Position numbers and translations under genes: made by a program | IMG/VR virus record: IMGVR_UViG_3300020191_000010 | Span: 660-64,659 of that record | Length of the DNA stretch: 64,000 nt | Strand: one strand, 5' to 3' | DNA from: a virus | Lineage: Duplodnaviria > Caudoviricetes | In this document: piece after piece, positions 10,333-51,680 of the stretch | Position numbering within the stretch: position 1 is the stretch's first letter | How the letters are laid out: each line of letters starts with the position of its first letter | Notes under the pieces: model-generated | Seen by the model: the letters and a program-made list of their open reading frames with translations, nothing else | Database searches by the model: none | Told to the model about the DNA's origin: nothing

Positions 10333-10878
10333 ATGAAACGATATGTTTTTCTCGGTGCATGTGCTTTTGCTTTTCTTGGGGGATTAGTTACCGGTAAATC
10401 AGCCTTTGGTGGTGAAGCAATTGCTGGTAATATCCACTCTCCGGAGTCTGAGCAAAAGTGTTTAGCAGATAATATATATTTCGAAGCTCGTAACCAGATA
10501 CATAGGGGAATGATTGGTGTCGCTCTTGTCACTCGTAACCGTGTTCTTGATTCTAGGTTTCCTCATTCATATTGTGAGGTTGTTAAGCAAGGACCTGAAA
10601 GACCATCGTGGAAACAAAATGGGACTATGGTACCTCTTCGCCACCGGTGCCAATTTAGTTGGTATTGCGATGGCAAGTCTGATAGCATTTCTTATCACGA
10701 TGTTAGTGTGTATGAACTTGCTCGTGCCATCGCTTTTAAAGTCTATCACGGAGAATTTACCGACTTTACAGATGGCGCCACTCATTATCATGCCGATTAT
10801 GTTAGACCAGAATGGGCATCAACAAAAACAAAAACAATGACAATTGATAACCATATTTTTTATAGATGGGAAAAATAA
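10333..10878 (+). CDS. SleB/Hydrolase_2-family cell wall hydrolase with N-terminal hydrophobic signal
   Basis: 'CLADNIYFEAR', 'NRV.D.RFP', 'CQFSWYCDGK', 'GATHYHADYVRPEW', 'IDNHIFY'. Confidence 0.9.
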   Translation: MKRYVFLGACAFAFLGGLVTGKSAFGGEAIAGNIHSPESEQKCLADNIYFEARNQIHRGMIGVALVTRNRVLDSRFPHSYCEVVKQGPERPSWKQNGTMVPLRHRCQFSWYCDGKSDSISYHDVSVYELARAIAFKVYHGEFTDFTDGATHYHADYVRPEWASTKTKTMTIDNHIFYRWEK

Positions 10879-11192
10879 TGAAAGATCTATTTCCGGAAAA
10901 TGATTTACCTGAATTCAAGTTTAACGAAGATATGTATATTGATGAGATTGCTGATTACATCATTGCGACATATAGTCAACATTACTCTAAGAAACGATTT
11001 CAGGCATCAGAGTTTATCTATGATACCGGTCATGGTACTGGATTTAATATGGGCAATGTAATGAAGTATGCTCAGAGATATGGCAATAAAGGTACTAGAG
11101 ATGATCATCGGAAGGATCTGATGAAGGTGATTCATTATGCGATTCTTCAGTTGCACGTGCACGATACTTCGCAAGACGAATGGTCTCTTTAA
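10866..11192 (+). CDS. DUF3310-like conserved phage protein
   Basis: 'HY', 'GFNMGNVMKYAQRYG.K', 'DLMKVIHYA'. Confidence 0.65.
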   Translation: MGKIMKDLFPENDLPEFKFNEDMYIDEIADYIIATYSQHYSKKRFQASEFIYDTGHGTGFNMGNVMKYAQRYGNKGTRDDHRKDLMKVIHYAILQLHVHDTSQDEWSL

Positions 11193-11325
11193 GATCAAAT
11201 AGTTCTTTTTCTAATTGTGTTTGTGGCGCTCGAACATCCTCTAACGTCCTATCATAAAGATAGGCGTTAAGGAAAAGTATGGCAACTAATAGTGCTATAA
11301 TTGACAACAGTATTACCTCTGACAT
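11095..11325 (-). CDS. Hypothetical membrane-anchored protein
   Basis: N-terminal TM segment; last ORF of a minus-strand block. Confidence 0.5.
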   Translation of the reverse strand: MSEVILLSIIALLVAILFLNAYLYDRTLEDVRAPQTQLEKELFDLKETIRLAKYRARATEESHNESPSSDPSDDHL

Positions 11326-11328
11326 ACA

Positions 11329-11541
11329 TTACCATTGACTTGACAATTGGCCTTTGTTTACTGGCTTACACTTCCACTGGTATGGCTTAAAACCAGACAT
11401 AGTTAAATGTATAGCTTGGGACATTTCTAAAGCCCGAGCTTCACATCTTTCGTATGTTTTGTATGGTCCTCTCTGGTCTTCTAGCACTACACACTGATTG
11501 GGATCAGATATAAGACAAGCTAAAACTAAAGCCATATACAT
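11329..11541 (-). CDS. Hypothetical small Cys-containing protein
   Basis: 'C....C', 'ERCEARA', 'WKC' pattern. Confidence 0.65.
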   Translation of the reverse strand: MYMALVLACLISDPNQCVVLEDQRGPYKTYERCEARALEMSQAIHLTMSGFKPYQWKCKPVNKGQLSSQW

Positions 11542-11557
11542 TTTTTTTCTTTCTATA

Positions 11558-12037
11558 TTAAACTGCCGAGTATACTACAAATATTAATCCACCGCCGCCT
11601 AATATTACACAACTACCAATAATAATAAACATTTTAACAGTTTCCCAAAACTCAGCTTGTTCTTTTAATCTTCTTCTTCTTTCTGCTTCAGCTGCTTCTC
11701 TTGCTTCAGCAATTCGTTTTTGGCGTTCTTCTAAAATACCTTGCCAGGTTCCAGGACCAAAACGCATATCAACTAGATTACGCATTTCCTGCATTTTTTC
11801 TTCTGCAAGTTTTGCATCGATCATTTCTTGGGCAACTGATTGGATCCCGAACTGATCTTTCAGTCCGACACCAGTTTTCTTATTTCTTTTCTTTTGTACT
11901 TCTTCAGTACCTTTGAAAAGACCATCAATTGCTCCTGCGATCTCCCCGATATCTTGTGCTGTCTGAATATTGCTTTTAATAAAATCTACTGACGATTTTA
12001 CAAGAGCTATTCCGGCAAGAATCTCTGCTACTGGCAT
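11558..12037 (-). CDS. Hypothetical coiled-coil protein with C-terminal TM
   Basis: 159-aa ORF with an AAGGT RBS. Confidence 0.75.
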   Translation of the reverse strand: MPVAEILAGIALVKSSVDFIKSNIQTAQDIGEIAGAIDGLFKGTEEVQKKRNKKTGVGLKDQFGIQSVAQEMIDAKLAEEKMQEMRNLVDMRFGPGTWQGILEERQKRIAEAREAAEAERRRRLKEQAEFWETVKMFIIIGSCVILGGGGLIFVVYSAV

Positions 12038-12112
12038 CTTGATCTACCTTTTTTTATGTTAGATAGATATGACTCAATTTTAAGATATAACTCGCTCTCA
12101 CTACTATTTATG

Positions 12113-12153
12113 TTTACATTCGCCCTTATATGTGATATAATACATTATAAATA
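12113..12153 (+). promoter_or_regulatory. Tandem early (TTTACA-N17-TATAAT) and late (TATAAATA) promoters for tmRNA
   Basis: TTTACA 12113-12118, TATAAT 12136-12141, TATAAATA 12146-12153. Confidence 0.75.
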
Positions 12154-12154
12154 A

Positions 12155-12220
12155 GAAATGATTCAGTGAAGCTGGATGGATGTAGACTGGACGCGGGGGC
12201 AGTACCCGCCGCCTCCACCA
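12155..12220 (+). ncRNA. ssrA: Two-piece (permuted) tmRNA, acceptor piece; 5' end approximate
   Basis: T-arm GCGGG-GGCAGTA-CCCGC followed by CGCCTCC-A-CCA. CGCCTCC pairs with GGGGGCG at 12488, including the G3:U70 alanine determinant. Confidence 0.93.
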
Positions 12221-12238
12221 TAAACACACTAGGGAAAT

Positions 12239-12475
12239 ATGACTAAGATAACAAAGGAAAATACACCAAATAAATATGTGAGATGGTTCTGTTGGTTTAT
12301 ACAATTTAAATATGTATGGGATATCCAAACATTATTTGAAAAATACCTTCCAATGGAAAAGATATATCGCTTTTTAGGTTTTTACTTATTCTGGTTAATT
12401 TGGTTTTGTTTTCTAATGTTTGTATTATATCAAATTACAGGAAGTTTTGAATTCCTCCTTTGGTTTGAAGAATAG
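12239..12475 (+). CDS. Hypothetical aromatic-rich membrane protein inside the tmRNA intervening segment
   Basis: 78 aa, AGGGA upstream, one long hydrophobic helix; fills the intervening loop. Confidence 0.6.
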   Translation: MTKITKENTPNKYVRWFCWFIQFKYVWDIQTLFEKYLPMEKIYRFLGFYLFWLIWFCFLMFVLYQITGSFEFLLWFEE

Positions 12476-12487
12476 TGTGCTTATGAT

Positions 12488-12627
12488 GGGGGCGAAATAG
12501 GATCGACAGATACGTGAAGGCAGTGGAGAATCACAAAAGTAAATGCAAACGATAACTTTGCTCCTGAGATGCGCCTAGCGGCATAATCTCTGGGCCCGCC
12601 GGAGCCTCGAAACAGAATCCGGCAACC
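12488..12627 (+). ncRNA. ssrA: Two-piece tmRNA, coding piece; tag ANDNFAPEMRLAA* at 12545-12586; 3' end approximate
   Basis: 5' GGGGGCGAAATAGGATCGAC; resume context TAAAT-GCA; tag ends in LAA; downstream GCCGGA...TCCGGC helix. Confidence 0.95.
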
Positions 12628-12645
12628 TACCCGAAGGAGGGTACC

Positions 12646-12987
12646 ATGAAATACTATCTAATAATGTTCCTAATGCTATGGGCTACATCAGCATTTGCTG
12701 AACCAGAGTGGAGACAGAAACCAGTTCAATGTGGATCTCCAGATACTCTTATCAAAGTAATTTCTGCAGCAGGAGAAAAGGCTTTAATTGGAGCTCTTAC
12801 TGATTTAAGAAAACCAGGAGAACAACAATCTAGTCTAACACCGGTATACATATTTGTTAATACTGATACAGGTACTTTTACTATTGTTGAATATCATATA
12901 AATGGTGAAGATGTATGTGTAATCGGTTATGGTACAGGTATTGATTTTAACGTACAACATTTATTTGAGAAAAAAACTGAAAGTTAA
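12646..12987 (+). CDS. Hypothetical secreted protein
   Basis: GGAGG RBS; signal peptide ending AFA. Confidence 0.8.
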   Translation: MKYYLIMFLMLWATSAFAEPEWRQKPVQCGSPDTLIKVISAAGEKALIGALTDLRKPGEQQSSLTPVYIFVNTDTGTFTIVEYHINGEDVCVIGYGTGIDFNVQHLFEKKTES

Positions 12988-12993
12988 AACTTT

Positions 12994-14478
12994 GTGAACC
13001 ACTGCTTGATTATGAACATCGAAGAACGAAGTCATACACGTTCTTTGGGCCCATATCGAATAGCACATTGGCTAAGAGAAAATGGGTGGGATGCTGAAGT
13101 GATAGACTACTGCGCTCATTGGTCACACGATGAATTAACAGAACTGTGTCTTTCTCGTATTACGAATGATACAAAATTTGTAGGATTTTCCTCCTTATTT
13201 ACAGGATGGTCACAACATATAGAATTTTTCTCTCAATTCCTTCGAAAATTTTATCCAAATATTATACAAATATCCGGATCATCTAGTCTTCCAAACGCAG
13301 ATATGACATGTGTAGATTACCATATCTATGGATTTGGCGAGCGAGCTATTGATAAACTATTACAATATCTTTTCTCAAGTGGTGAGGAACCAAAAAACAT
13401 TGAATATTTTAATACTAAACTAATTGATGCATCCCATTATCCTGCATATCCATTAAATGATTATACCGTATTATACCAAGACAGAGATTATCTTCAGCCA
13501 TGGGAATTCCTTTCAATTGAAACAGGTAGAGGTTGTAAATTTAAATGCAGCTTTTGCAACTTTTCAGTGCTCGGTGTAAAGGGTGATTATAGCACATCTC
13601 AAGATAGTTTTGAAAAACAAATGAAGACAAACTACGATAAATGGGGTATTAAGAACTATGTTATTGCAGAAGAAACATTTAATGATCGTACTGAAAAAGT
13701 AGAAAAGTTTAGTAAGGTAGTTAAAAAACTAGATTTCGATCCATGGTTTGCAGCTTATATTCGAGCTGATTTATTAATATCACGTAAAAGTGAAATGGAA
13801 TATTTAGCCGATATGAATGTTTTCGGTCAGTTCTATGGTGTAGAATCGTTCAATCAAAAGACTGCAAAGGCGATTAAGAAAGGCATGGATAGAGGCAAGA
13901 TGAAAGATGGTCTCTTAAATGTTAAGGAATATTTTGAAAAGAATCATAATAAATATCGAGGCAATATTTCCCTTATAGTTGGTGCACCATATGAAACAAA
14001 AGAGTCACTCGATAATTCATTGGATTGGCTAGTTGATAATTGGAAGAGTCAGAGCTTTACTGCATATCCACTTGGTATCCCAGTATATGGAAGACAATCA
14101 ATATTAAGTGGATCATACGAAAAGAATGAATATGAAGAAATTGCTATTGATGAACTCTATCAAAAGCACGATAAAGCATATGTTGATAAAGTTGTAAAGA
14201 AAAATAATATAATTCAAAATGGAAATATTATTGAAAAGAAATGGCTCATGTGGAAAAATAAACAAATGGATGTAGTTGAAGCATTTCAAATACATGATAA
14301 AATGTATGATGTAATGAAAAAAGAAAAATTTAAAAAATCAACATTTGCTGTTGCCGAATTTAGTGGTAAAAAATCTACTATCGAAGATAAATTAAAGCTT
14401 GACGTAAACTTTGTAAAAAAATTCAGAGATGAAGAATTGAAATGGGTAGAGGAATATAAAGAGAAAAAATTATCATGA
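12994..14478 (+). CDS. Cobalamin-binding radical SAM enzyme
   Basis: N-terminal B12-binding-like domain ('LGPYRIA..LRE.G....VID', 'VGFSS', 'GFGE'); 'GRGCKFKCSFC'; 'GVESFN'. Confidence 0.88.
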   Translation: MNHCLIMNIEERSHTRSLGPYRIAHWLRENGWDAEVIDYCAHWSHDELTELCLSRITNDTKFVGFSSLFTGWSQHIEFFSQFLRKFYPNIIQISGSSSLPNADMTCVDYHIYGFGERAIDKLLQYLFSSGEEPKNIEYFNTKLIDASHYPAYPLNDYTVLYQDRDYLQPWEFLSIETGRGCKFKCSFCNFSVLGVKGDYSTSQDSFEKQMKTNYDKWGIKNYVIAEETFNDRTEKVEKFSKVVKKLDFDPWFAAYIRADLLISRKSEMEYLADMNVFGQFYGVESFNQKTAKAIKKGMDRGKMKDGLLNVKEYFEKNHNKYRGNISLIVGAPYETKESLDNSLDWLVDNWKSQSFTAYPLGIPVYGRQSILSGSYEKNEYEEIAIDELYQKHDKAYVDKVVKKNNIIQNGNIIEKKWLMWKNKQMDVVEAFQIHDKMYDVMKKEKFKKSTFAVAEFSGKKSTIEDKLKLDVNFVKKFRDEELKWVEEYKEKKLS

Positions 14479-45556: not shown

Positions 45557-46084
45557 ATGCACCCATCATCCCGTATTAATATGCAAAGATCTAGAGATCT
45601 ACTAGGATCTAGATTAGAAAAAGGTATTACTATTCTTGACGTTGGTGGTAGAGATATTAAGCCTGGTCAAGATAGATCGTACAAGCAAATGTTTAAGGAT
45701 GTAGTAAAAGACTATTATATTGCAGATATCCAGAACGGACCAAATGTTACACATGTTATGCCTGGTGATTATGAATTACCATTTGAAGAAGGATCTATTG
45801 ATCTTGTAGTATGCGGACAGGTACTTGAGCATGTAAAGAATCCATTTCGCAGTGTTATCGAAATGACACGTGTACTTAAATCTGGTGGTTATATTATTCT
45901 TATTGCACCATCAGCAGGTAAGTACCACGACTCTATTGATTGCTGGAGATTTATGGATGATGCATTTCAGGCTATTGCCGAAGAGGCAGGATTAGAAACT
46001 ATTACTGATTATGTAGATCGATCACAACCAGACGAAAGATCTCGCCGTTGGGCAGATCATGTATTTGTAGGACGTAAGCCTTGA
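45557..46084 (+). CDS. Class I SAM methyltransferase (Methyltransf_11-like)
   Basis: 'ILDVGG', 'D.V...QVLEHV.NP', 'RVLK.GG', 'H....DCWRF'. Confidence 0.88.
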   Translation: MHPSSRINMQRSRDLLGSRLEKGITILDVGGRDIKPGQDRSYKQMFKDVVKDYYIADIQNGPNVTHVMPGDYELPFEEGSIDLVVCGQVLEHVKNPFRSVIEMTRVLKSGGYIILIAPSAGKYHDSIDCWRFMDDAFQAIAEEAGLETITDYVDRSQPDERSRRWADHVFVGRKP

Positions 46085-46776
46085 AGGCATTTGTAATTAC
46101 AATACCAGACCACGAAGTCTCTCAACATGCTGCAGACGTGTGTATAGAAAGTAGCAAAGTCGTAGGTAATTCCTTTGAGATTCAGAAGTTTGATGCAGTA
46201 ATACCACGTCAAGTAAACAAAATGATGAGAGATTACCGCCTAGAATGGAACTATCCCTGGGAAGGATCAGTATTTGATTTTAAAACTGGTTTAAAGAAGT
46301 CTGCTTATCCTACCGTAAATAAACAAGCTAGAATCGCTTGTTCTTTGAGCCATTATACTTTATGGAAAAATTGTTATAATGATGCTGAACCATATCTTAT
46401 TTTAGAACATGATGCAAAGTTTATAAAGAAATTAGATATTAATATTATCGATACTGATAAGTTTTTTATTATAGGCATTAATAATCCATTATTTGCAACT
46501 AGGAAGGCAAACCTATTTAAACAGATAATTGATGAAAATACTAAAGAACTACAGCTTGTACCAACAATTGATTCATTCGAAGTTCCCCAAGGGTTAGCTG
46601 GAAACTCAGCATATATAATTAAACCAAAAGGGGCTAGACAGATGCTAAGGCTTGTAGAAGATCATGGTTTATGGCCTAATGATGCTATTATGTGTAAACA
46701 ACTAATCCCAGCATTAGGTGTAACAAAGACATTCTATACAGAAGTTCAAGGTACACCTTCTACTACTTCGAGGTAA
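46081..46776 (+). CDS. GT25-like glycosyltransferase
   Basis: 'KAFVIT', 'FDAV', 'C.LSHY.LW', 'ILEHDA', 'AYII.P.GA..L'. Confidence 0.85.
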   Translation: MKAFVITIPDHEVSQHAADVCIESSKVVGNSFEIQKFDAVIPRQVNKMMRDYRLEWNYPWEGSVFDFKTGLKKSAYPTVNKQARIACSLSHYTLWKNCYNDAEPYLILEHDAKFIKKLDINIIDTDKFFIIGINNPLFATRKANLFKQIIDENTKELQLVPTIDSFEVPQGLAGNSAYIIKPKGARQMLRLVEDHGLWPNDAIMCKQLIPALGVTKTFYTEVQGTPSTTSR

Positions 46777-51077: not shown

Positions 51078-51256
51078 TGACGCCCGCAGAGTTACAAGAA
51101 GCGCTGCCTTTACTCGGTCAGCTCCTCTTACTGGTAGTAATTGGCGCGCTTCTTGTAGGTTCTTTTTTTGCCATTGTTGGCTTTATGTTTCGAAATGCAT
51201 TATGGATTACAATGATATTAGGAGTTATAATTATCTTTATGAATATGGTTCCGTAG
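51065..51256 (+). CDS. Small two-TM membrane protein (likely start ATG 51077)
   Basis: Hydrophobic ORF; its stop lies inside the tRNA-Arg 5' end. Confidence 0.6.
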   Translation: MGVVMTPAELQEALPLLGQLLLLVVIGALLVGSFFAIVGFMFRNALWITMILGVIIIFMNMVP

Positions 51257-51323
51257 CTCAGCTGGATAGAGCAACAGCCTTCTAAGCTGTGGGTCGAGGG
51301 TTCGAATCCTTCCGGAATCGCCA
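51247..51323 (+). tRNA. tRNA-Arg (TCT)
   Basis: Cloverleaf; ACAGC-CT TCT AA-GCTGT; TTCGAAT T-loop; encoded CCA. Confidence 0.95.
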
Positions 51324-51326
51324 AAT

Positions 51327-51411
51327 GCCCGCGTGATGGAATAGGTAGACATAACGGACTTAAAATCCGTGGCCATACGGCGTGCCAGTTCGAGTCTGGC
51401 CGTGGGTACCA
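51327..51411 (+). tRNA. tRNA-Leu (TAA)
   Basis: ACGGA-CT TAA AA-TCCGT; long variable arm; encoded CCA. Confidence 0.95.
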
Positions 51412-51414
51412 TAT

Positions 51415-51603
51415 ATAGTTAGTCGAACGAGTATAAACGTGGTTAAGCCTGCAACGACTCTAAAATTAAGACGCAGGTGGGAATGGTCCGTTCGCCTTCA
51501 TAAGAAAGGAACGCAATCGCATCCAGCATTTATAAGTTGGCTCTGCTAAATTTAAGGGTGATGCCTTAATACATCCGCGTGGGGCCAACGGTTAGCCCCA
51601 CAC
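51415..51603 (+). ncRNA. Putative structured ncRNA between tRNAs
   Basis: No ORF with an RBS seen. Crossing helices AGTCG/CGACT and GCCTGC/GCAGGT; hairpins at 51489-51513, 51552-51569 and 51579-51601. Confidence 0.55.
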
Positions 51604-51606
51604 CCT

Positions 51607-51680
51607 GCGGGTATAGTATAATGGTATTACAATCGCCTTCCAAGCCAAAGACCTCGGTTCGATTCCGGGTACCCGCTCCA
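51607..51680 (+). tRNA. tRNA-Gly (TCC) with imperfect anticodon stem
   Basis: GCGGGTA/TACCCGC-T-CCA; loop CTTCCAA; T-arm CTCGG-TTCGATT-CCGGG. Confidence 0.88.

What the first reader, a model, noticed from the sequence alone, without database searches (positions are those of the whole stretch)
12217..12487. A protein gene nested in the tmRNA intervening segment and closed by its own stem
Seen: the spacer between CCA (12220) and G1 (12488) is 267 nt. Its ends pair: CATAAACACACTA (12219-12231) with TAGTGTGCTTATG (12473-12485), one mismatch, extending the acceptor stem. The loop is filled almost exactly by a 78-codon ORF: the RBS-like AGGGA starts where the 5' arm ends, and the TAG stop forms the first three bases of the 3' arm. 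The product is a Trp/Phe-rich single-TM protein. Established: bacterial intervening segments are usually short, non-coding and discarded in processing. Inference: the phage uses the pre-tmRNA loop as a cargo slot, giving either an excised stem-protected mini-mRNA or translation coupled to tmRNA maturation.
Basis: partly seen in the sequence, partly recalled or inferred. Interest (0 to 1): 0.82.

Follow-up and report, generated by a model that had tools for sequence, protein, structure and literature searches.

The report
Protein gene inside phage tmRNA spacer
The spacer that is cut out when this marine T4-like phage's two-piece ribosome-rescue RNA (tmRNA) matures carries a real, selected 78-codon gene for a small membrane protein, and related phages keep the same stem-closed spacer empty or fill it with other small genes.

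Summary
Window 12122-12626 (+) is an intact alpha-type circularly permuted tmRNA gene that ARAGORN misses. CCA ends at 12220, G1 is 12488, and the 267-nt intervening segment (IVS) holds a 78-codon ORF (12239-12475).

The ORF is a genuine gene. It has 22 protein relatives down to 48% identity. dN/dS among nested copies is about 0.08. More distant homologs are ordinary operon genes with no tmRNA nearby.

The 13-bp stem is real but is not the ORF's own. It is the ancestral pre-tmRNA hairpin that extends the acceptor stem. It is present, with covariation, in ORF-less phage and cellular IVSs.

At the orthologous site, relatives carry an empty 26-29-nt hairpin, other ORFs of 33-49 codons, this ORF, or this ORF plus a second one. 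In my samples 43 of 111 phage IVSs were at least 100 nt, against 0 of 100 cellular ones.

So the "cargo slot" reading is supported comparatively. How the cargo is expressed (from the precursor or from the excised RNA) and whether translation is coupled to maturation remain inference. RNA-library contigs span the junctions, but DNA carry-over is not excluded.

My literature searches found no description of this. Earlier notes of this scan report the same phenomenon on many other genomes.

The parts
12113..12141 (+). Sigma-70-type promoter of the tmRNA gene (TTTACA, 17 nt, TATAAT, with TG before the second hexamer)
   Evidence: 11 of 12 matches, the best site in 11900-13100. A consensus match only; no transcription start was mapped.
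12159..12220 (+). Acceptor piece of the two-piece tmRNA: 5' strand of P2, T arm (12193-12209), 3' strand of the acceptor stem (12210-12216), ACCA (12217-12220)
   Evidence: Rfam alignments. Pair list, including the G3-U wobble 12490-12214.
12219..12231 (+). 5' arm of the precursor closing stem (starts in the CA of CCA)
   Evidence: Conserved by covariation in relatives.
12221..12487 (+). Intervening segment (IVS), 267 nt, absent from mature tmRNA by analogy with characterised two-piece tmRNAs
   Evidence: Removal is inferred, not shown.
12231..12235 (+). Shine-Dalgarno-like AGGGA, 3 nt before the ATG
   Evidence: Relatives have TAGGAG or TAGAGG at the same place.
12239..12475 (+). 78-codon gene for a small Trp/Phe-rich membrane protein, orphan family
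   Evidence: No Pfam or PHROG match.
12473..12485 (+). 3' arm of the closing stem; its first three bases are the ORF's TAG stop
12488..12626 (+). Coding piece of the tmRNA, from G1; its 3' limit is taken from the RF01849 match
12545..12586 (+). Tag reading frame ANDNFAPEMRLAA plus stop
   Evidence: Position is as in the Rfam alignment.

Best explanation
Window 12122-12626 is an intact alpha-type two-piece (circularly permuted) tmRNA gene of an uncultured marine or salt-marsh T4-like phage. Like its phage and cellular relatives, its precursor closes the spacer between CCA and G1 with a hairpin of about 13 bp that stacks on the acceptor stem.

In this lineage the hairpin loop has received a bona fide gene for a 78-residue membrane protein. 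The gene has no promoter or terminator of its own. It is therefore transcribed from the tmRNA promoter as part of the pre-tmRNA, and translated from its own Shine-Dalgarno site. Translation could occur on the nascent or unprocessed precursor, or on the spacer RNA released when RNase P cuts at G1 and the CCA end is matured.

The slot is exchangeable: relatives at the same genomic site have it empty, filled with other small ORFs, or filled with this ORF plus another.

Shown:
- the tmRNA is intact;
- the stem is conserved;
- the ORF is a selected protein gene;
- the cargo varies between relatives.

Inferred:
- transcription as one precursor;
- where and when the ORF is translated;
- the fate of the excised RNA;
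- the protein's function (a small inner-membrane protein, possibly lysis-related).
For: The tmRNA is intact.
- RF01849 scores 82.9 bits and RF04321 77.6 bits over their full models.
- There is a 7-bp acceptor stem with a G3-U pair, and the tag is ANDNFAPEMRLAA.

The ORF is real.
- 22 relatives range from 99% to 48% identity, with 12 invariant columns.
- Nested-versus-nested dN/dS has a median of 0.075 and a range of 0-0.187, over the 57 of 66 pairs with dS above 0.02; median dS is 1.18.
- An ORF of 78 or more codons arose in 5 of 2000 shuffles.
- An SD-like motif is kept at the same spot in relatives.
- Homologs at 69% identity or less stand as ordinary genes with overlapping stop and start codons. 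No tmRNA lies within about 3 kb in 12 of 12 loci scanned.

The stem belongs to the precursor.
- Among 80 unique IVSs of at least 40 nt, cognate arms give a mean of -14.85 kcal/mol against -6.02 for non-cognate arms. 62 of 80 lie beyond the 5% tail. By size class this is 30 of 31, 16 of 26 and 16 of 23.
- In-register pairing is 0.89 against 0.33-0.53 when shifted, and stem positions 4-13 show 4-6 pair types each.
- The stem is also present in cellular genes.

The cargo varies at the orthologous site. Of 36 tmRNAs located in 80 loci:
- 14 have an IVS of 26-29 nt without an ORF, two of them (L356, L379) in a different arrangement;
- 9 have 109 nt with an ORF of 35-39 codons;
- 6 have 114-152 nt with other ORFs;
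- 4 have 267 nt;
- 3 have 388 nt with two coupled ORFs.

Long IVSs are phage-specific in my samples: 43 of 111 phage IVSs are at least 100 nt against 0 of 100 cellular ones. Of 49 unique IVSs of at least 100 nt, a sense ORF covers 70% or more in 38, against 12 for the antisense strand.

Transcription.
- Inside the IVS the scan found no + strand promoter better than 9 of 12 matches, and no terminator.
- RNA-library contigs run across CCA-ORF-G1 (X1 12191-13399, X16 12191-12503) or across the ORF-G1 junction (X17 12288-12600).
Against: - There is no direct evidence of translation or of processing. The RNA runs were available only as contigs, the flanking genes on both strands are covered too, and DNA carry-over in those libraries is not excluded.
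- AGGGA is a weak SD, only 3 nt from the ATG.
- Two of the 22 database homologs look truncated or frame-shifted: P0013 diverges after residue 50 and P0016 is 45 aa.
- For IVSs of 100-160 nt the ORF excess over shuffles is mostly not significant, so not every slot ORF need be real.
- The structure model is of low confidence (mean pLDDT 65.9) and no family match gives a function.
Confidence: 0.8

Rival explanations
1. Regulatory coupling. The nested position is functional in itself: ribosomes translating the cargo must open the closing stem. The stop codon lies in the 3' arm, 13 nt before G1. Translation would therefore delay formation of the acceptor stem and RNase P cleavage, or processing would limit how long the mRNA can be translated, tying tmRNA maturation to the phage's translation status.
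For: - Geometry: the SD abuts the 5' arm and the TAG is inside the 3' arm.
- In many other cargo families the SD lies inside the 5' arm (for example CATAAGGAGATT). The ORF then ends either at the conserved TGA just before G1 or at a TAG 11-13 nt inside the coding piece. Those ORFs can terminate normally only on the uncut precursor.
Against: - Nothing here measures kinetics.
- The same gene family works as an ordinary operon gene, and sits immediately upstream of the tmRNA in L010, L011 and L016. The protein therefore does not need the nested position.
- The stop positions are largely dictated by conserved tmRNA sequence and may be incidental.
Confidence: 0.2
2. Two transcription units. The acceptor piece and the coding piece (and/or the ORF) are transcribed separately and the pieces assemble in trans, so the ORF is just a gene lying between two RNA genes.
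For: - A 267-nt separation would allow it.
- Weak promoter-like matches exist on the + strand at 12278-12305 and 12503-12531 (9 of 12 each).
Against: - The arms flanking long, ORF-bearing IVSs still pair and covary (16 of 23 for IVSs of at least 160 nt). That is expected only if both ends sit in one RNA.
- No candidate promoter precedes G1 at a usable distance, and no terminator follows CCA.
- RNA-library contigs bridge both junctions (weak evidence).
Confidence: 0.08
3. The tmRNA gene was inactivated by the insertion and is decaying. Only the inserted gene matters.
For: Covariance-model scores are lower than for relatives with short IVSs (77.6 bits here against 120.9 bits in L010 for RF04321). 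The long insert itself costs score.
Against: - Both pieces, the G3-U pair, the tag frame and the closing stem are all kept.
- They are kept across nested copies whose synonymous sites are near saturation (median dS 1.18) and in at least three different genomic neighbourhoods.
Confidence: 0.04
4. The ORF is a chance open frame in a structured non-coding spacer.
For: - The spacer is AT-rich.
- 5 of 2000 shuffles reached 78 codons.
- An antisense ORF of 74 aa overlaps the region.
Against: - dN/dS is about 0.08 with near-saturated dS.
- Free-standing homologs occur in other phages at 45-69% identity.
- There are 12 invariant residues.
Confidence: 0.02

Closest known systems
Circularly permuted two-piece tmRNA genes of Alphaproteobacteria and of aquatic T4-like phages (Rfam RF01849 and RF04321; OM43 phage Melnitz and pelagimyophages, PMC9004378; tmRNA database, PMC11915505)
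   Same: - Gene order: acceptor piece, then IVS, then coding piece.
- A G3-U acceptor stem and an alpha-type ANDNFA...LAA tag.
- A precursor hairpin closing the IVS.
   Different: - Cellular IVSs in my sample are 5-83 nt (median 30) with no room for a gene. Here the IVS is 267 nt and encodes a selected protein.
- The passages I read of PMC11915505 mention only a tRNA-Ala gene and a repetitive element as IVS contents, and 'ORF' and 'open reading' occur 0 times.
- The passages I read of PMC9004378 describe Melnitz ssrA and a glutamine riboswitch but no IVS ORF.
Mixed tRNA-mRNA transcripts: the phage T4 tRNA region with interspersed small ORFs, and the E. coli tufB and tyrT operons (recalled from general knowledge, not checked in any call)
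   Same: One transcript carries both stable-RNA precursors and translated ORFs, and tRNA-processing nucleases separate them.
   Different: Here the ORF lies inside one RNA gene, between two halves that must pair with each other, and within a hairpin that continues the acceptor stem.
ORFs inside group I introns of tRNA, rRNA or tmRNA genes (homing endonucleases; the intron form of tmRNA, PMC11915505)
   Same: A protein gene nested in a segment that is removed from a stable RNA.
   Different: - There is no intron. Rfam finds only tmRNA and tRNAs in the window, and the two tmRNA pieces are not religated.
- The cargo is a small membrane protein, not an endonuclease.
Phage 'morons' and the hyperplastic regions of T4-like phages (recalled)
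   Same: Small accessory genes of unknown function come and go at fixed hot-spots between conserved flanks. The same genes turn up in other positions in other phages.
   Different: The hot-spot is the loop of an RNA-processing hairpin rather than an intergenic region, and the cargo uses the promoter of a stable-RNA gene.

Membership tests
Circularly permuted (two-piece) tmRNA, alpha type (RF01849 / RF04321) | Covariance-model score above the curated cut-off over the full model | tested here: met
   RF01849 82.9 bits against 50, model positions 1-355. RF04321 77.6 bits against 47, positions 1-213.
Circularly permuted (two-piece) tmRNA, alpha type (RF01849 / RF04321) | Permuted order: T arm, 3' acceptor strand and CCA lie upstream of G1 and the tag frame | tested here: met
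   CCA at 12218-12220, G1 at 12488, tag at 12545-12586.
Circularly permuted (two-piece) tmRNA, alpha type (RF01849 / RF04321) | 7-bp acceptor stem with the G3-U alanine identity pair | tested here: met
   12488-12494 pairs with 12216-12210, and G12490 pairs with T12214.
Circularly permuted (two-piece) tmRNA, alpha type (RF01849 / RF04321) | Tag reading frame ending in a hydrophobic ...LAA degradation signal and a stop | tested here: met
   ANDNFAPEMRLAA*.
Circularly permuted (two-piece) tmRNA, alpha type (RF01849 / RF04321) | The precursor is cleaved into two pieces and the IVS is discarded | not testable with these tools
   Only contigs of RNA libraries were available. They show no ends.
Protein-coding gene (cargo ORF) | Homologs conserved at protein level with purifying selection | tested here: met
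   22 relatives. dN/dS median 0.075 between nested copies, 0.086 between nested and upstream copies, 0.095 between free-standing copies.
Protein-coding gene (cargo ORF) | Evidence of translation | not testable with these tools
   No Ribo-seq or proteomics data were available. Only an SD-like motif was seen.
Group I intron with nested ORF | Intron core recognisable; exons religated | tested here: not met
   No intron family among the Rfam matches of the window. Two-piece tmRNAs are not religated (PMC11915505 passages).
Holin or lysis-associated small membrane protein | Membrane helix or helices, a charged C-terminus, a place in a lysis cassette, and a family match | tested here: inconclusive
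   - One hydrophobic stretch at residues 44-68 and an acidic C-terminus.
- Homologs lie directly after a Phage_lysozyme gene (L031) or two genes after a Hydrolase_2 endolysin (L010; window 10333-10878).
- Other homologs have unrelated neighbours.
- No Pfam or PHROG match.

The most novel reading that the evidence does not exclude
Phage two-piece tmRNA genes have evolved their discarded spacer into a dedicated, exchangeable expression cassette. The conserved hairpin arms supply the recombination anchors, often the ribosome-binding site (in the 5' arm) and the stop codon (in the 3' arm or just inside the coding piece).

The stem-closed RNA released by tRNA-processing enzymes would then work as a nuclease-protected mini-mRNA. 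Alternatively, cargo translation gates maturation of the phage's own ribosome-rescue RNA.

For cargoes whose stop lies beyond G1, RNase P cleavage would turn the message into a non-stop mRNA. That is the very substrate of tmRNA, so the system would tag its own cargo.
Probability: 0.3. Interest if true: 0.85.

Novelty: new variant of a known kind. Interest (0 to 1): 0.72.

Why it matters
**A stable-RNA precursor that is also an mRNA.** The tmRNA spacer is treated as disposable, non-coding RNA. Here it is a place where phages keep and swap small selected protein genes. One transcript is therefore both a stable-RNA precursor and an mRNA, and ribosomes and tRNA-processing nucleases must share it.

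**Testable questions.**
- How translation and RNase P processing are ordered on one RNA.
- Whether excised, stem-closed spacers persist as mRNAs.
- What small membrane proteins T4-like marine phages express from a strong tmRNA promoter.

**Annotation.** ARAGORN missed this tmRNA. Pipelines that rely on it would therefore annotate a lone hypothetical protein and no tmRNA.

Tried and rejected
I therefore could not inspect the DNA of the two apparently truncated homologs P0013 and P0016, or the long contigs of P0004 and P0015.
- **Function of the protein.**
  - No Pfam or PHROG match.
  - The ESM Atlas gave only scores of 0.79-0.80, which is chance level.
  - The profile search over 1.84 billion representatives found 8 relatives, all unnamed.
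  - The AlphaFold2 model has a mean pLDDT of 65.9 and three helices. That was too weak for a fold search, so I ran none.
- **Cultured relatives.**
  - tblastn of the ORF and of the neighbouring radical-SAM protein against 50,697 GenBank phage records found nothing.
  - blastn of the tmRNA region matched only 35-41 nt of the T arm and acceptor in Melnitz and in an Erythrobacter phage.
- **Expression.**
  - Four metatranscriptome runs hold the stretch, but only as contigs. They bridge the junctions, but the flanks on both strands are covered too, so neither transcription nor processing is shown.
  - The 'joints' at 12228/12474 carry other letters between them. They are other tmRNA genes with the same arms and a short spacer, not splicing (table 5c).
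- **Predicted pairing of the SD and AUG** with 12389-12414 in the MFE fold is AU-rich and untested in relatives. I do not rely on it.
- **Direction of movement of the ORF.** The ORF could have moved from upstream of the tmRNA into the loop, or the reverse. I considered a duplication-loss route and did not resolve it. Two observations bear on it:
  - the ORF's 3' flank in L010 resembles both the window's 3' arm and the tmRNA promoter -10 region;
  - L016 keeps a remnant copy of the upstream gene's 3' end.
  - My first G1 regular expression and the relaxed one were mistyped and found nothing. They were corrected.
  - The peptide motif caught 39 loci (23 unique sequences). It missed the roughly 49%-identity group, so those sequences are not in the dN/dS figures.
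- **Literature.**
  - Five searches and passages of PMC11915505, PMC9004378, PMC10117765, PMC12291355 and PMC3978253 gave no report of protein genes in a tmRNA spacer.
The tables of PMC11915505 and Table S1 of PMC9004378, which may list spacer lengths, were not seen.
  - Subscription papers are not in the library.
Full report
**1. What is at the coordinates**

- CCA ends at 12220 and G1 is 12488, so the spacer is 267 nt.
- CATAAACACACTA (12219-12231) is complementary to TAGTGTGCTTATG (12473-12485), apart from A12224 opposite C12480.
- AGGGA (12231-12235) begins at the last base of the 5' arm.
- An ATG at 12239 opens a 78-codon frame. Its TAG (12473-12475) forms the first three bases of the 3' arm.

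Rfam identifies the surrounding gene as a permuted tmRNA. RF01849 alpha_tmRNA scores 82.9 bits (cut-off 50) over 12122-12626. RF04321 tmRNA_permuted scores 77.6 bits (cut-off 47). ARAGORN does not report it.

The tRNA-like part is canonical. The 7-bp acceptor stem pairs 12488-12494 with 12216-12210 and includes the G3-U pair, and the T arm is 12193-12209. The tag frame reads ANDNFAPEMRLAA-stop. A near-consensus promoter (TTTACA, 17 nt, TATAAT with TG) lies at 12113-12141. No terminator, and no + strand promoter match better than 9 of 12, lies inside the spacer.

The window's larger genes are UvsX-like recombinase, DnaB/gp41-like helicase, ThyX, ribonucleotide reductase and baseplate or tail proteins. 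This is a T4-like phage. The record is a 64.7-kb IMG/VR contig estimated 39% complete.

**2. Is it more than chance?**

The closing stem is in the minimum-free-energy structure of 12150-12640. Its pair probabilities are 0.86-1.00 at 12 of 13 positions. An ORF of at least 78 codons appeared in 5 of 2000 dinucleotide shuffles of the 28% G+C spacer, where the mean longest ORF was 32 codons. The comparative evidence below is much stronger than either figure.

**3. The ORF is a real gene**

The protein search found 22 relatives from 99% down to 48% identity. They share 12 invariant residues, concentrated in an N-terminal NKYVRW...VWDI.T..EKYLPM block that is followed by a hydrophobic helix.

In IMG/VR, 70 loci encode a relative. 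I took the 23 unique coding sequences that a peptide motif recovered and computed Nei-Gojobori dN/dS.

| Comparison | Median dN/dS | Detail |
|---|---|---|
| Nested vs nested | 0.075 | Range 0-0.187; 57 of 66 pairs with dS > 0.02; median dS 1.18 |
| Nested vs immediately-upstream copies | 0.086 | |
| Free-standing vs free-standing | 0.095 | |

The protein is therefore under strong purifying selection while sitting inside the tmRNA gene.

The family is small and orphan.
- The profile search found 8 representatives among 1.84 billion proteins.
- There is no Pfam or PHROG match.
- The Atlas gave nothing useful.
- GenBank phages gave no match.
- The AlphaFold2 model is of low confidence (pLDDT 65.9) and shows three helices.
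- Composition is 6 W, 13 F and 6 Y, with one hydrophobic stretch at about residues 44-68 and an acidic C-terminus.

Two database members (P0013 and P0016) look frame-shifted or truncated. I could not examine their DNA.

**4. Where the gene sits in relatives**

An Rfam scan of 20 representative loci and a script over L001-L027 show four arrangements.

| Arrangement | Spacer | Loci |
|---|---|---|
| (a) ORF nested | 264-267 nt | Window, L001-L009, L014, L018-L026. L017 and L027 have CCA 18-19 nt before the ORF; my G1 pattern missed their G1, but Rfam confirms L027. |
| (b) ORF nested, preceded by a second ORF | 388 nt | L012, L013, L015. A 41-codon ORF precedes it, and its TGA overlaps the GTG start of the 77-codon ORF. 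|
| (c) ORF immediately upstream of the tmRNA | 53 nt (L010, L011) or 140 nt (L016) | ATGA overlap with a DUF3310 gene. The 53-nt spacer has no ORF; the 140-nt spacer holds a different 45-codon ORF. |
| (d) ORF as an ordinary operon gene | No tmRNA in the fetched flanks (up to 3 kb each side) | All more distant homologs (69% identity or less): 12 of 12 scanned. |

The nested module also occurs in at least three different gene neighbourhoods.

**5. The stem belongs to the tmRNA precursor, not to the ORF**

I collected phage tmRNA genes by an exact pattern from the G1 region. A script located the matching acceptor end in 111 of them. Spacers range from 8 to 499 nt, and 43 are at least 100 nt.

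For the 80 unique spacers of at least 40 nt, including the ORF loci and the window:
- The two ends pair with a mean of -14.85 kcal/mol, against -6.02 for non-cognate ends. 62 of 80 lie beyond the 5% tail of the control.
- By size class this holds for 30 of 31 spacers of 40-99 nt, 16 of 26 of 100-159 nt and 16 of 23 of 160 nt or more.
- In register with the window's stem, 89% of cells pair, against 33-53% when the partner is shifted. Positions 4-13 each show four to six different pair types. This is covariation.

Within the nested clade the window's A-C mismatch is absent in the L019 type, where the 3' arm has T. The L018 type has a mismatch at the next position instead.

The same kind of stem closes cellular alphaproteobacterial spacers. 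In a GTDB sample, 100 located of 120 stretches, those spacers are 5-83 nt with a median of 30, and none reaches 100 nt. L338 has practically the window's arms around a 29-nt spacer. The ORF was therefore inserted into the loop of a pre-existing processing hairpin.

**6. The slot varies at the orthologous site**

I used the divergently transcribed neighbour (window 11558-12037) as an anchor. 80 syntenic loci were fetched, the best 80 of 154. A tmRNA was located in 36 of them (one search had a mistyped pattern).

| Spacer | Content | Loci |
|---|---|---|
| 26-29 nt | No ORF | 14 (two in a different arrangement) |
| 109 nt | ORF of 35-39 codons | 9 |
| 114-152 nt | Other ORFs of 33-49 codons | 6 |
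| 267 nt | The 78-codon ORF | 4 |
| 388 nt | Two ORFs | 3 |

L315 has an empty 29-nt spacer, although its anchor protein is as close to the window's (84%) as those of loci with the 267-nt spacer. L323's 152-nt spacer holds a 41-codon ORF homologous to the first ORF of L012. L012 is therefore stacked cargo.

Across the wider sample, recognisable cargo families recur.
- One is the 120-codon ORF in L100's 499-nt spacer. Its homolog is the gene directly upstream of the free-standing homolog of our ORF in L029.
- Of 49 unique spacers of at least 100 nt, a sense ORF covers 70% or more in 38, against 12 for the antisense strand.
- 25 of the 49 beat 95% of shuffles. Nearly all spacers of 160 nt or more do so, whereas most of 100-160 nt do not.

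**7. Expression**

Six metatranscriptome runs hold the stretch. In the four I laid, contigs from RNA libraries run across both junctions (X1 12191-13399, X16 12191-12503), across ORF-G1 (X17 12288-12600), or across CCA-ORF (X18 12194-12484). The flanks on both strands are covered as well, and contigs show neither ends nor strand. This is compatible with a precursor but does not prove transcription, and says nothing about processing.

**8. Mechanism**

The best-supported model is as follows. The tmRNA promoter drives one precursor. The cargo is translated from its own SD. RNase P at G1 and 3'-end maturation at CCA free the two tmRNA pieces, and also a spacer RNA whose ends remain paired.

The steps shown and inferred are listed under Best explanation. 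Because the TAG lies in the 3' arm 13 nt before G1, a terminating ribosome must have opened the whole closing stem. Translation and acceptor-stem formation therefore cannot coincide on one molecule. Whether that is used for regulation is open (rival 1).

The protein itself does not need the nested position (arrangements c and d).

Function: a small inner-membrane protein.
- Homologs lie just after a phage lysozyme gene (L031) or two genes after a Hydrolase_2 endolysin (L010, L011 and L016; the window's endolysin is 10333-10878). This hints at a lysis-related role.
- Other contexts do not support it.

**9. Comparison with what is known, and novelty**

The gene meets every testable defining feature of an alpha-type two-piece tmRNA (see Membership tests). 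What is not described in the papers I could search and read is protein-coding cargo in the spacer.
- The 2025 tmRNA database paper mentions a tRNA gene and a repetitive element as unusual spacer contents and never uses 'ORF'.
- The Melnitz paper describes the phage ssrA and a riboswitch.
- Five full-text searches found nothing closer. Supplements were closed, and subscription journals are not covered.

Mixed tRNA-mRNA transcripts and ORFs in introns of stable RNAs are known analogues (recalled). I therefore rate this a new variant of a known kind.

After I had reached this reading, I looked up the scan's earlier notes. The same phenomenon has been noted by first readers and follow-up agents on many other genomes (296 notes hold the search words). 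Their 'swappable slot' claim agrees with what I tested independently here.

**10. Verdict**

- The cargo-slot idea holds.
- 'Its own stem' does not hold.
- The mini-mRNA and coupling ideas remain to be tested.

Noticed in passing
L182, L091, L187, L095, L186, L333-L341, L094, L117, L076, L016 (spacer ORFs): Many cargo ORFs do not stop inside the spacer. They read through G1 and end at the TAG of the conserved GAAATAGG, 11-13 nt into the coding piece, giving peptides that end ...MGAK or ...GLK. After RNase P cleavage such a message would lack a stop codon, which would make it a substrate for trans-translation itself.
   Followed up: partly
L312 935-1118 (Methylophilales phage Melnitz MZ577097, record about 46077-46260): The cultured phage Melnitz has a 142-nt spacer with the same type of arms and a GGAG site. 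An unannotated 54-codon ORF (L312 954-1118) runs 42 nt into the coding piece. GenBank annotates only one tmRNA feature there. Its conservation was not tested.
   Followed up: partly
L029 2642-3001 and L100 spacer (499 nt): The 119-aa membrane protein encoded directly upstream of the free-standing homolog in L029 is homologous to the 120-codon ORF that fills L100's tmRNA spacer. Two genes that are neighbours in one phage are each spacer cargo in others.
   Followed up: no
L016 3246-3290; L010 3232-3250: In L016 a remnant copy of the 3' end of the upstream DUF3310 gene follows the ORF, a trace of duplication or recombination. In L010 and L016 the ORF's stop plus the next 12 nt resemble both the window's 3' arm (13 of 15 in L010) and the tmRNA promoter's -10 region. 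The direction of the ORF's move is unresolved.
   Followed up: partly
window 12122-12626: ARAGORN does not detect this tmRNA, whereas Rfam does. I presume the cause is the long spacer, but I did not test that. Phage annotation pipelines that rely on ARAGORN would miss such genes and call only a hypothetical protein.
   Followed up: partly
window 12228/12474 (tables 5 and 5c): RNA-library contigs join the two arms with 33 or 7 other letters between them. These are other tmRNA genes in the same samples that share the window's arms but have a short spacer. They are not spliced forms.
   Followed up: partly
window 51247-51680: A cluster of three tRNA genes: Arg-TCT, Leu-TAA and Gly-TCC. In L022 an array of six tRNAs lies just upstream of the tmRNA.
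   Followed up: no
window 10333-12037: Upstream of the tmRNA lie a signal-peptide-bearing Hydrolase_2 endolysin (10333-10878), a DUF3310 gene (10866-11192) and three small minus-strand genes. Two of the three have hydrophobic segments (11095-11325 and 11558-12037). This may be a lysis-related neighbourhood.
   Followed up: partly
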